Shown: positions 63,101 to 64,000 of the stretch, piece after piece
Layout of the letters: every line of letters starts with the position of its first letter
Numbering within the stretch: the stretch's first letter is position 1
Assembly (NCBI RefSeq): GCF_054482595.1
Contig: NZ_CM137008.1
DNA length: 64,000 nt
Direction: 5' to 3' (one strand)
Position numbers: made by a program

Positions 63101-64000
63101 TCACAGGCCACCAGCCACTGGGCTTTGACTATTTCCCGCTGCCCTTCTGCCGTTTTCAGGTGCAAGGTCACTTCGTCATCTTGCTGACTGAAGGCCTCCA
63201 GCTCGCGGGAAAACAAGCAGCGCACATTCGGAAAACGCGACACCCCTTCCAGCATCACCGCATCGACCTGCGGCTGAATAAAGGCGTTACGGCGCGGCCA
63301 GCCAAATTCATCGGTCATTGGCTGAATATCAGCAAAACAGCGGCCCTTCGGGGTGAGAAAACGCATCGCGTGCCACGGTGTAGTGTGCGGCAGAACATTA
63401 TCGACCAGGCCAACCGACTGCATGGTGCGCAGCGCCTCGTCATCAATACCAATCGCACGCGGGTAGTCGATCAACTTATCGAGTTTCTCCACCACCAGCA
63501 CGTCAATGCCCATCTGGCCGAGATAGTTCGCCATCATCAGTCCGACCGGACCGGCACCAGCGATCGCCACCTGAACGCTATGGTTAACAGCAGGCTGGAT
63601 GTCAGGGTGTTGTATTGCCATTTCAGTACCTCACGACTCGGACAAAATGCCGTTGCGCGCACAGTACGGCGCAACTTATTTTGTTAAAAACATGTAAATG
63701 ATTTTTTATTGTGCGCTCAGTATAGGAAGGGTGTTTTCGGCTACAATCAAAACATGCCCGAATGTGCACCAGGTGCACAACGTTGTTTTAACTATAGAAA
63801 TGTCAATTAATATGCAGAACAATGAGCAGACGGAATACAAAACCGTGCGCGGCTTAACCCGCGGTCTAATGTTATTAAATATGTTAAATAAACTTGACGG
63901 CGGTGCCAGCGTCGGGCTGCTGGCGGAACTCAGCGGCCTGCATCGCACCACTGTGCGGCGACTGCTGGAGACGCTGCAGGAAGAGGGATATGTCCGGCGT

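What the first reader, a model, noticed from the sequence alone, without database searches (positions are those of the whole stretch)
63763..63779. Perfect 17-bp palindrome in the mhpR-mhpA divergent control region
TGTGCACCAGGTGCACA (8-bp arms around a central A) is a strong candidate for the MhpR (IclR-family) operator controlling the mhpABCDFE promoter; a CRP site is also expected in this region (established knowledge for mhp regulation).
Basis: partly seen in the sequence, partly recalled or inferred. Interest (0 to 1): 0.25.

Follow-up and report, generated by a model that had tools for sequence, protein, structure and literature searches.

The report
Known MhpR operator in E. coli
The 17-base palindrome is the already published docking site of the MhpR activator, which turns on the E. 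coli genes for degrading a plant-derived aromatic acid; it is ordinary, apart from a one-base difference from the lab strain K-12 that makes the palindrome perfect.

Summary
TGTGCACCAGGTGCACA lies at 63763-63779, in the 190-bp spacer between mhpA (- strand, ATG at 63621) and mhpR (+ strand, ATG at 63812) of an E. coli genome.

The published MhpR operator (Torres et al. 2003, quoted in PMC8222616) is GGTGCACCTGGTGCACA. This matches the K-12 sequence exactly and the window at 16 of 17 bases.

The one difference is the outermost base on the mhpR side, T here and G in K-12. It makes the window's palindrome perfect. The T allele is in about 3367 of 5426 complete E. coli genomes and the G allele in about 1512. 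T is also the state in 65 of 73 species.

The core GTGCAC-N3-GTGCAC is present, with at most one mismatch, in all 72 loci that have a divergent MhpR ortholog. It is absent from six loci without one. It keeps a fixed distance to a conserved TTGTAG/TATACT promoter, which places its centre near -58.

CRP regulation of this region is documented. However, a consensus scan finds only weak candidates (6 of 10 core bases), no better than chance.

Novelty: already known. Interest: low.

The parts
63763..63779 (.). MhpR operator: 17-bp perfect palindrome TGTGCACCAGGTGCACA (on the mhpA strand TGTGCACCTGGTGCACA), centre at 63771
   Evidence: sequence. (published motif GGTGCACCTGGTGCACA). (K-12 identical to the published motif, window 16 of 17). 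(conserved in 73 species).
63764..63769 (.). Core hexamer GTGCAC, arm nearer the Pa promoter
   Evidence: the six positions are 73, 72, 73, 71, 73 and 70 of 73 conserved (offsets +7 to +2 on the mhpA strand).
63773..63778 (.). Core hexamer GTGCAC, arm nearer mhpR
   Evidence: offsets -7 to -2 are conserved in 73, 73, 73, 72, 73 and 71 of 73.
63779..63779 (.). Polymorphic outermost operator base. Window has A on the + strand (T on the mhpA strand), giving a perfect palindrome. K-12 has C (G), giving the published imperfect palindrome.
   Evidence: alignment with K-12. (T allele in 3367 genomes, G allele in 1512, of 5426). (T in 65 of 73 species, G in 6, A in 2).
63741..63746 (-). Inferred -35 element of the mhpA promoter Pa (TTGTAG), 16 nt upstream of the -10
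   Evidence: the TTGT of this hexamer at operator offsets +25 to +28 is conserved in 68-73 of 73 species. It lies inside a block, TGTTTTGATTGTAGC, that is invariant in 19 of the 20 aligned Enterobacteriaceae. The assignment as -35 is an inference.
63719..63724 (-). Inferred -10 element of Pa (TATACT). It implies a transcription start near 63712-63713, so the operator centre lies at about -58 or -59.
   Evidence: TATACT invariant in 20 Enterobacteriaceae. (TATACT, CATACT or TATAAT at offset +47 to +50 in essentially all 73 loci). The start site itself was not measured here. The value -58 is my recollection of Torres et al. 2003.
63783..63790 (-). Asymmetric conserved flank on the mhpR side of the operator (TAAAACAA on the mhpA strand, TTGTTTTA on the + strand); function unassigned
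   Evidence: CAA at offsets -14 to -12 is present in 70, 71 and 61 of 73. The pattern TTG(T/A)TTTA is shared by Enterobacteriaceae and Pseudomonas.
63798..63819 (.). Weak candidate CRP site AAATGTCAATTAATATGCAGAA (core TGTCA-N6-ATGCA, centre 63808.5, about -95.5 from the inferred Pa start), overlapping the mhpR start codon
   Evidence: 6 of 10 core matches, third-best candidate in the spacer, and not better than chance. The position -95.5 is my recollection of Torres et al. 2003. TGACA is kept in Escherichia, Citrobacter and some Kluyvera and Pseudocitrobacter, but not in Klebsiella or Raoultella.
61957..63621 (-). mhpA, 3-(3-hydroxyphenyl)propionate hydroxylase, first gene of the regulated operon
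   Evidence: 554-aa ORF; RefSeq annotation; FAD_binding_3, E = 7.8e-83.
63812..64000 (+). mhpR, 5' part (63 codons, cut by the window end), the IclR-family activator that binds the operator
   Evidence: annotation. (HTH_IclR at residues 15-63, E = 7.5e-15).

Best explanation
The palindrome is the operator of MhpR, the IclR-family activator encoded by the adjacent divergent gene. A symmetric MhpR oligomer binds the two GTGCAC-containing half-sites. The site is centred about 58 bp upstream of the start of the sigma-70 promoter Pa (TTGTAG, 16 nt, TATACT).

When MhpR carries its inducer, 3-(3-hydroxyphenyl)propionate, it activates transcription of mhpABCDFE from that position. cAMP-CRP adds catabolite control and depends on MhpR for binding at Pa.

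Shown here: identity with the published operator, co-occurrence with mhpR, and a fixed distance to a conserved promoter. Taken from the literature: binding, inducer dependence and CRP cooperation. Inferred: the exact start site and the -35/-10 assignment.

The window's strain carries the T allele at the outermost base. That allele makes the site a perfect palindrome and is the common and apparently ancestral state.
For: (1) The published operator GGTGCACCTGGTGCACA (Torres 2003, quoted in PMC8222616 Table 1) is identical to K-12 at the homologous position and matches the window at 16 of 17 bases.

(2) The locus is mhpR/mhpA of E. coli. The 601-bp query is 100% identical to many genomes, and MhpR has HTH_IclR and IclR_C domains.

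(3) In a scan with MhpA that did not use the operator sequence, all 72 loci with a divergent MhpR ortholog carry GTGCAC-N3-GTGCAC with at most one mismatch. Six loci without MhpR (Acinetobacter, Moraxellaceae) have none within two mismatches.

(4) Base identity is conserved, not just complementarity. Arm positions are 70-73 of 73 identical with no compensatory changes, while the central three bases vary. That pattern fits protein recognition.

(5) The distance from the operator to TTGTAG and TATACT is constant in Enterobacteriaceae and within 1-3 bp in Pseudomonas and the other genera.

(6) Secondary literature: MhpR is the 3HPP-dependent activator of Pa and is essential for CRP binding, and inducers stimulate MhpR binding to its operator.
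Against: No binding experiment exists for the T-allele sequence. The primary papers could not be read here, so the footprint limits, the -58 position and the start site rest on my recollection and on the inferred -10.

The generic sigma-70 scan found no promoter in the spacer. This is expected for an activator-dependent promoter with a 3-of-6 -35 match.

One locus (Lampropedia, L038) has the motif but no adjacent mhpR.
Confidence: 0.95

Rival explanations
1. The palindrome is itself the CRP site of the region, because it reads TGTG...CACA as CRP sites do.
For: The outer bases are TGTGC...GCACA. In the 22-mer scan the palindrome scores 5 of 10 core matches (centres 63770.5 and 63771.5). CRP regulation of both promoters is documented.
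Against: The spacing is wrong: TGTG-N9-CACA here against TGTG-N8-CACA in the CRP consensus. As a result only one half can align at a time. The conserved bases are GTGCAC, not TGTGA/TCACA. The motif tracks MhpR orthologs, including in Pseudomonas, rather than the enteric CRP regulon. The literature assigns this sequence to MhpR.
Confidence: 0.02
2. The palindrome acts as an RNA hairpin in a long mhpR leader, as an attenuator, terminator or stability element, rather than or in addition to being a DNA operator.
For: The terminator scan flags it on the + strand: a 7-bp stem followed by ACGTTGTTTT. The hairpin folds at about -9 kcal/mol. Its distance to the mhpR ATG is about 40-41 nt in Enterobacteriaceae and in part of the Pseudomonas loci. 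mhpR is reported to be up-regulated post-transcriptionally under acid stress.
Against: The fold is no better than shuffled sequence (z = -0.33; 72 of 200 shuffles fold at least as well). The T-run is interrupted. There are no compensatory substitutions in 73 species, and base identity is conserved instead. Whether the site is transcribed at all depends on the mhpR start site, which I could not establish.
Confidence: 0.04
3. The site is also bound by NtrC, in addition to MhpR, linking mhp expression to nitrogen status.
For: Genomic SELEX with NtrC lists a strong peak (88%) in the mhpR/mhpA spacer. The NtrC consensus is TGCACCAnnnTGGTGCA, and the operator contains perfect TGCACC and GGTGCA halves.
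Against: The halves are 1 nt apart instead of 5. The SELEX peak is not resolved to the base. The data are in vitro only, with no sigma-54 promoter known here. Conservation follows MhpR, not NtrC.
Confidence: 0.1
4. It is a chance palindrome with no function.
For: One perfect 8+1+8 palindrome per 64 kb is what chance predicts (1 observed, 1.05 expected).
Against: There is exact core conservation across 64 of 73 species at a fixed promoter offset. The expectation is 0.003 for the 190-bp spacer. The site is identical to the published operator.
Confidence: 0.005

Closest known systems
MhpR operator of the E. coli K-12 Pa (mhpABCDFE) promoter, GGTGCACCTGGTGCACA (Torres, Porras, Garcia, Diaz 2003, J Biol Chem 278:27575)
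   Same: It is the same locus, the same position between mhpR and mhpA, and 16 of 17 bases are identical. Both GTGCAC hexamers and the central CTG are the same, and so is the surrounding promoter.
   Different: The outermost base on the mhpR side is T here and G in K-12. The published site is therefore an imperfect palindrome and this one is perfect. The T allele is the majority in E. coli (3367 against 1512 genomes) and the consensus across species (65 of 73).
Operators of other IclR-family regulators of aromatic catabolism (PobR, PcaU, HmgR, PcaR, TtgV), as tabulated in PMC8222616
   Same: They are palindromic sites of similar length, lying between a divergent regulator gene and its catabolic operon. 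For the activators, the site sits upstream of the -35. The regulator has HTH_IclR and IclR_C domains.
   Different: The half-site sequence (TGTGCAC) is specific to MhpR. PcaU, PobR and HmgR have an extra external direct half-site repeat. Here the conserved external flank TAAA(A/T)CAA does not resemble a half-site. There is no solved MhpR structure, and the nearest PDB relatives are distant (best E = 8e-18).
CRP-dependent catabolic promoters with a second, specific activator, where CRP binds upstream of that activator
   Same: The literature describes cAMP-CRP control of both Pa and the mhpR promoter, and CRP binding at Pa that depends on MhpR.
   Different: No sequence in the spacer matches the CRP consensus better than 6 of 10 core bases. 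The CRP site or sites therefore cannot be located from sequence alone. The positions I recall (-95.5 for Pa, -40.5 for the mhpR promoter) could not be checked.

Membership tests
Published MhpR operator of promoter Pa | Sequence GGTGCACCTGGTGCACA | tested here: met
   The window matches 16 of 17 bases and K-12 matches 17 of 17. The single difference is at the least conserved outer position.
Published MhpR operator of promoter Pa | Lies in the spacer between divergent mhpR and mhpA | tested here: met
   mhpA ATG at 63621 (- strand), mhpR ATG at 63812 (+ strand), palindrome at 63763-63779.
Published MhpR operator of promoter Pa | Centred at about -58 from the Pa transcription start (recollection of Torres 2003) | tested here: inconclusive
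   The conserved TATACT at 63724-63719 implies a start near 63712-63713 and an operator centre at -58 or -59. The start site was not measured and the paper could not be read.
Published MhpR operator of promoter Pa | Bound by purified MhpR and required for 3HPP-dependent activation | not testable with these tools
   Reported for the K-12 sequence in the literature. No experiment exists for the T allele.
Published MhpR operator of promoter Pa | Co-occurs with the regulator across genomes | tested here: met
   72 of 72 loci with a divergent MhpR ortholog have the motif. Six loci without MhpR lack it. One locus (L038) has the motif without an adjacent mhpR.
IclR-family operator | The cognate regulator has an IclR-type winged helix-turn-helix domain and an IclR effector domain | tested here: met
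   HTH_IclR E = 1.9e-14 and IclR_C E = 3e-12 for K-12 MhpR. HTH_IclR E = 7.5e-15 for the 63 residues encoded in the window.
IclR-family operator | Two-fold symmetric site whose symmetry is conserved | tested here: met
   Arm positions 2-7 are mirrored in essentially all species. Outer pair T/A is complementary in 48 of 73 and inner pair in 48 of 73.
CRP binding site | TGTGA-N6-TCACA, with the two halves 6 bp apart | tested here: not met
   The palindrome is TGTGC-N7-GCACA and scores at most 5 of 10 core matches in either register.
NtrC box | TGCACCAnnnTGGTGCA, with halves separated by 5 nt | tested here: not met
   Both halves are present but 1 nt apart. There is an in vitro SELEX peak in the spacer.
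Intrinsic terminator | Stable GC-rich hairpin immediately followed by a U-run, at the end of a transcription unit | tested here: not met
   The pattern scan flags it. However, the fold z-score is -0.33, the T-run is interrupted, and the site lies between two gene starts rather than after a gene.

The most novel reading that the evidence does not exclude
Natural variation in the operator may tune mhp induction among E. coli lineages. There are two variants. One is the T/G polymorphism at the outermost base, perfect against imperfect palindrome, split about 69% to 31%. The other is a rare 9-bp expansion that creates a third GTGCAC hexamer (17 genomes). K-12, in which the operator was defined, would then carry the derived and less symmetric allele. 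A related open point is the conserved asymmetric flank TAAA(A/T)CAA, at a nearly fixed ~40-41 nt between the operator centre and the mhpR ATG in most loci. It could be an extra MhpR contact or an mhpR control element that has not been described.
Probability: 0.25. Interest if true: 0.25.

Novelty: already known. Interest (0 to 1): 0.08.

Why it matters
It matters little beyond correct annotation, because the site and its regulator were characterised in 2003.

The added value is modest:
- The textbook K-12 operator is the minority, less symmetric allele.
- The consensus operator across gamma-proteobacteria is T-GTGCAC-N3-GTGCAC-A, at a fixed distance from a TTGTAG/TATACT promoter.
- A consensus scan cannot locate the documented CRP input. 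This is a useful caution against calling CRP sites here from sequence alone.

Tried and rejected
Primary papers could not be read:
- Torres 2003, Manso 2009, Tropel and van der Meer 2004 and Diaz 2001 are not held in the library.
- Manso 2011 is known here only from reference lists.
- Positions -58, -95.5 and -40.5 therefore remain my recollection.
- Supplement look-ups for CRP-site or start-site tables found nothing on mhp.
- A paper on aromatic regulation in Betaproteobacteria does not mention MhpR.

Scans that gave no useful signal:
- The CRP consensus scan of the whole window at up to 3 mismatches was uninformative: 200 matches against 215 expected, and the output list ended before the spacer.
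- A weighted 22-mer scan gave only 6-of-10 candidates.
- The generic sigma-70 scan found no promoter in the spacer.
- A search for further operator copies in the window found none beyond chance: 4 matches at up to 2 mismatches against 3.5 expected, and only this one exact.

Left unresolved or failed:
- I tried to place the mhpR promoter from sequence. The candidates were TACAAT at 63742-63747, or a start near 63696-63704 paired with the candidate CRP site at 63645-63666. I could not decide between them and left it open.
- My first palindrome simulation timed out and was rerun.

Full report
**Observation.** The sequence at 63763-63779 is TGTGCACCAGGTGCACA. It has two 8-nt arms that are 100% complementary around one central base (I5). 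It contains two copies of the self-complementary hexamer GTGCAC, 9 bp apart.

It is the only perfect palindrome with arms of at least 8 and a spacer of at most 1 in the 64-kb window. That is what chance predicts for a window this size (1.05 expected). The expectation for the 190-bp spacer in which it lies is 0.003, or 0.04 if any spacer from 0 to 10 is allowed. So the bare palindrome is only mildly surprising, and the case rests on context and conservation.

**Context.** The end of the window is the E. coli mhp locus, in reverse orientation relative to K-12.
- mhpA is the 554-aa ORF at 61957-63621 on the - strand.
- mhpR starts at 63812 on the + strand and runs off the window.
- A 601-bp query around the site is 100% identical to many E. 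coli chromosomes, which annotate exactly these two genes. K-12 has the same arrangement next to lacI.
- MhpR has HTH_IclR and IclR_C domains. The 63 residues encoded in the window already carry the HTH. MhpA is an FAD-dependent hydroxylase.

**Identity with the published operator.** A comparative review of IclR-family motifs lists the E. coli MhpR site as GGTGCACCTGGTGCACA, citing Torres et al. 2003. K-12 has exactly this sequence at the homologous position. The window differs from it at one base, the outermost position on the mhpR side: T here and G in K-12 on the mhpA strand, which is window + strand position 63779. It is a perfect palindrome only in this allele.

**How common is each allele?** I used 55-mers with the variable base in the centre, so that every 28-base megablast seed must include it.
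- The T (perfect) allele was found in 3367 of 5426 complete E. coli genomes.
- The G (K-12) allele was found in 1512.
- Together that is 4879 of the 4896 genomes that hold the region.

These counts depend on the seed logic and are approximate.

**Comparative evidence.** I scanned one genome per species with the MhpA protein, without using the operator sequence. The scan returned 80 loci.
- In all 29 usable Enterobacterales loci, a GTGCAC-N3-GTGCAC motif lies upstream of mhpA. It is usually 147-152 bp from the start codon. Genera include Escherichia, Citrobacter, Kluyvera, Pseudocitrobacter, Klebsiella, Raoultella, Enterobacter and others.
- It is also present in 44 further loci from Pseudomonas, Lampropedia, Nitrincola and an unclassified Pseudomonadota MAG.
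- A tblastn search with K-12 MhpR shows a divergent MhpR ortholog in 72 loci. All 72 have the motif, exact in the 12 core bases in most and with one mismatch in nine.
- The six loci without an MhpR ortholog (five Acinetobacter, one Moraxellaceae) have no such motif within two mismatches.
- One exception is Lampropedia. It has the motif but ABC-transporter permease genes upstream instead of mhpR, so its regulator may be encoded elsewhere.

Position by position, the arm bases are identical in 70-73 of 73 species. The central three bases vary freely. The outer pair is T in 65 of 73 and A in 55 of 73. The inner and outer pairs are each complementary in 48 of 73.

The consensus is T-GTGCAC-N3-GTGCAC-A. 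The perfect palindrome of the window is therefore the typical state, and the K-12 G is a derived minority state.

**Promoter geometry.** On the mhpA side, the operator is followed at a constant offset by TTGTAG (window - strand 63746-63741), then 16 nt, then TATACT (63724-63719).
- The block TGTTTTGATTGTAGC is invariant in 19 of the 20 aligned Enterobacteriaceae, and TATACT is invariant in all 20. There are no indels between the operator and TATACT.
- The same arrangement holds, within 1-3 bp, in the Pseudomonas and other loci.
- Reading these as the -35 and -10 of Pa puts the start near 63712-63713 and the operator centre at -58 or -59.
- This agrees with the -58 that I recall from Torres et al. 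2003, but I could not read that paper, so the agreement is recollection plus inference.
- The generic promoter scan finds nothing here, as expected for an activator-dependent promoter with a poor -35.

**Mechanism.** The best-supported account is the published one. MhpR binds the symmetric site just upstream of the -35. When loaded with 3-(3-hydroxyphenyl)propionate, it activates Pa. cAMP-CRP adds catabolite control and needs MhpR to bind at Pa.

Open-access papers that cite the primary work say this directly:
- MhpR is the 3HPP-dependent activator of Pa and is essential for CRP binding.
- CRP sites upstream of mhpR/mhpA are listed in RegulonDB.
- A CRP site is annotated at -38 to -59 of mhpRp2.

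**The CRP question.** At three mismatches the whole window gives 200 matches against 215 expected. A weighted 22-mer scan of the spacer finds nothing better than 6 of 10 core bases, with centres at 63700.5, 63655.5, 63808.5 and 63737.5. Such scores occur by chance about once per 190 bp.

The candidate at 63808.5 (TGTCA-N6-ATGCA) lies at -95.5 from the inferred Pa start, which is the position I recall from the 2003 paper. Its good half, TGACATTT on the mhpA strand, is kept in Escherichia, Citrobacter and some Kluyvera and Pseudocitrobacter, but not in Klebsiella or Raoultella. The CRP input is thus real according to the literature but cannot be located from sequence.

**Rivals.**
- *The palindrome as a CRP site.* It fails on spacing: TGTG-N9-CACA instead of N8.
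- *An RNA hairpin or terminator reading.* The pattern scan raises it. However, the fold is no better than shuffled sequence (z = -0.33), the T-run is interrupted, and 73 species show conserved base identity with no compensatory change.
- *NtrC.* Genomic SELEX lists a strong peak (88%) in this spacer, and the NtrC consensus TGCACCAnnnTGGTGCA shares both halves with the operator. The halves here are 1 nt apart rather than 5, and the evidence is in vitro only. I keep this as a possible side interaction, not as the function.

**Comparison with what is known, and verdict.** This is the known MhpR operator, so the novelty class is 'already known'. It behaves like other IclR-family activator sites of aromatic pathways: it is palindromic, lies between the regulator gene and the operon, and sits upstream of the -35. 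No MhpR structure exists, and the nearest solved relatives are distant IclR-family proteins.

The small additions from this work are:
- the allele frequencies;
- the cross-species consensus and the fixed promoter geometry;
- a rare 9-bp expansion of the operator;
- a conserved asymmetric flank of unknown role.

Interest is low.

Noticed in passing
Homologous to window 63763-63779; L082 (NZ_CP148445.1) and L084 (NZ_AP038817.1): 17 of 5426 complete E. coli genomes, several from chickens, carry a 9-bp tandem duplication inside the operator: GTGCACCAG three times, giving three GTGCAC hexamers. The query used the K-12-type G allele. The G allele makes the 9-bp direct repeat longer and may favour slippage.
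   Followed up: partly
window 63783-63790 (+ strand TTGTTTTA): There is an asymmetric conserved flank on the mhpR side of the operator. CAA at offsets -14 to -12 is present in 70, 71 and 61 of 73 species, and TTG(T/A)TTTA is shared by Enterobacteriaceae and Pseudomonas. The operator centre lies about 40-41 nt from the mhpR ATG in Enterobacteriaceae and in part of the Pseudomonas loci (projected values 30-67 in the remaining loci), while the distance to mhpA ranges from 88 to 427 nt. The flank does not resemble a half-site, and its role is unknown.
   Followed up: partly
window 63763-63779 and the mhpR/mhpA spacer: NtrC genomic SELEX reports a strong peak (88%) in the mhpR/mhpA spacer of K-12. 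The operator contains perfect NtrC half-sites TGCACC and GGTGCA, but 1 nt apart instead of 5.
   Followed up: partly
window 63682-63697 (+ strand): TGTTAaaaacaTGTAA is a direct repeat with 11-bp spacing and resembles an ArcA box; that resemblance is from my own knowledge of the consensus. TTAACAA and TT(C/T)ACAT on the mhpA strand are conserved across Enterobacteriaceae. A Reg-Seq preprint reports ArcA enrichment at mhpRp2.
   Followed up: no
window 63742-63747 (+ strand TACAAT): The complement of the Pa -35 region reads TACAAT, a 5-of-6 match to a -10 hexamer pointing towards mhpR. It is kept in Enterobacteriaceae and part of Pseudomonas, but not in the P. fluorescens group, which has GACAAC. 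I could not establish where the mhpR promoter starts.
   Followed up: partly
L031 (SFGO01000113.1): A contig binned as 'MAG: Clostridiales bacterium' encodes an MhpA 99% identical to the E. coli protein. This is probably E. coli DNA mis-binned into the MAG.
   Followed up: no
window 63400-64000: Ten of the 4900 matches to the mhpA-mhpR region are on records labelled as plasmids. They may be F-prime-type plasmids carrying the lac-mhp region or assembly artefacts. I did not examine them.
   Followed up: no
mhpR (window 63812-64000): A 2024 paper reports that mhpR is the most strongly up-regulated transcription-factor gene at pH 4.4. It attributes this to a post-transcriptional mechanism, without activation of the mhpABCDFE promoter. 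This could bear on the unexplained conserved elements in the mhpR leader region.
   Followed up: no
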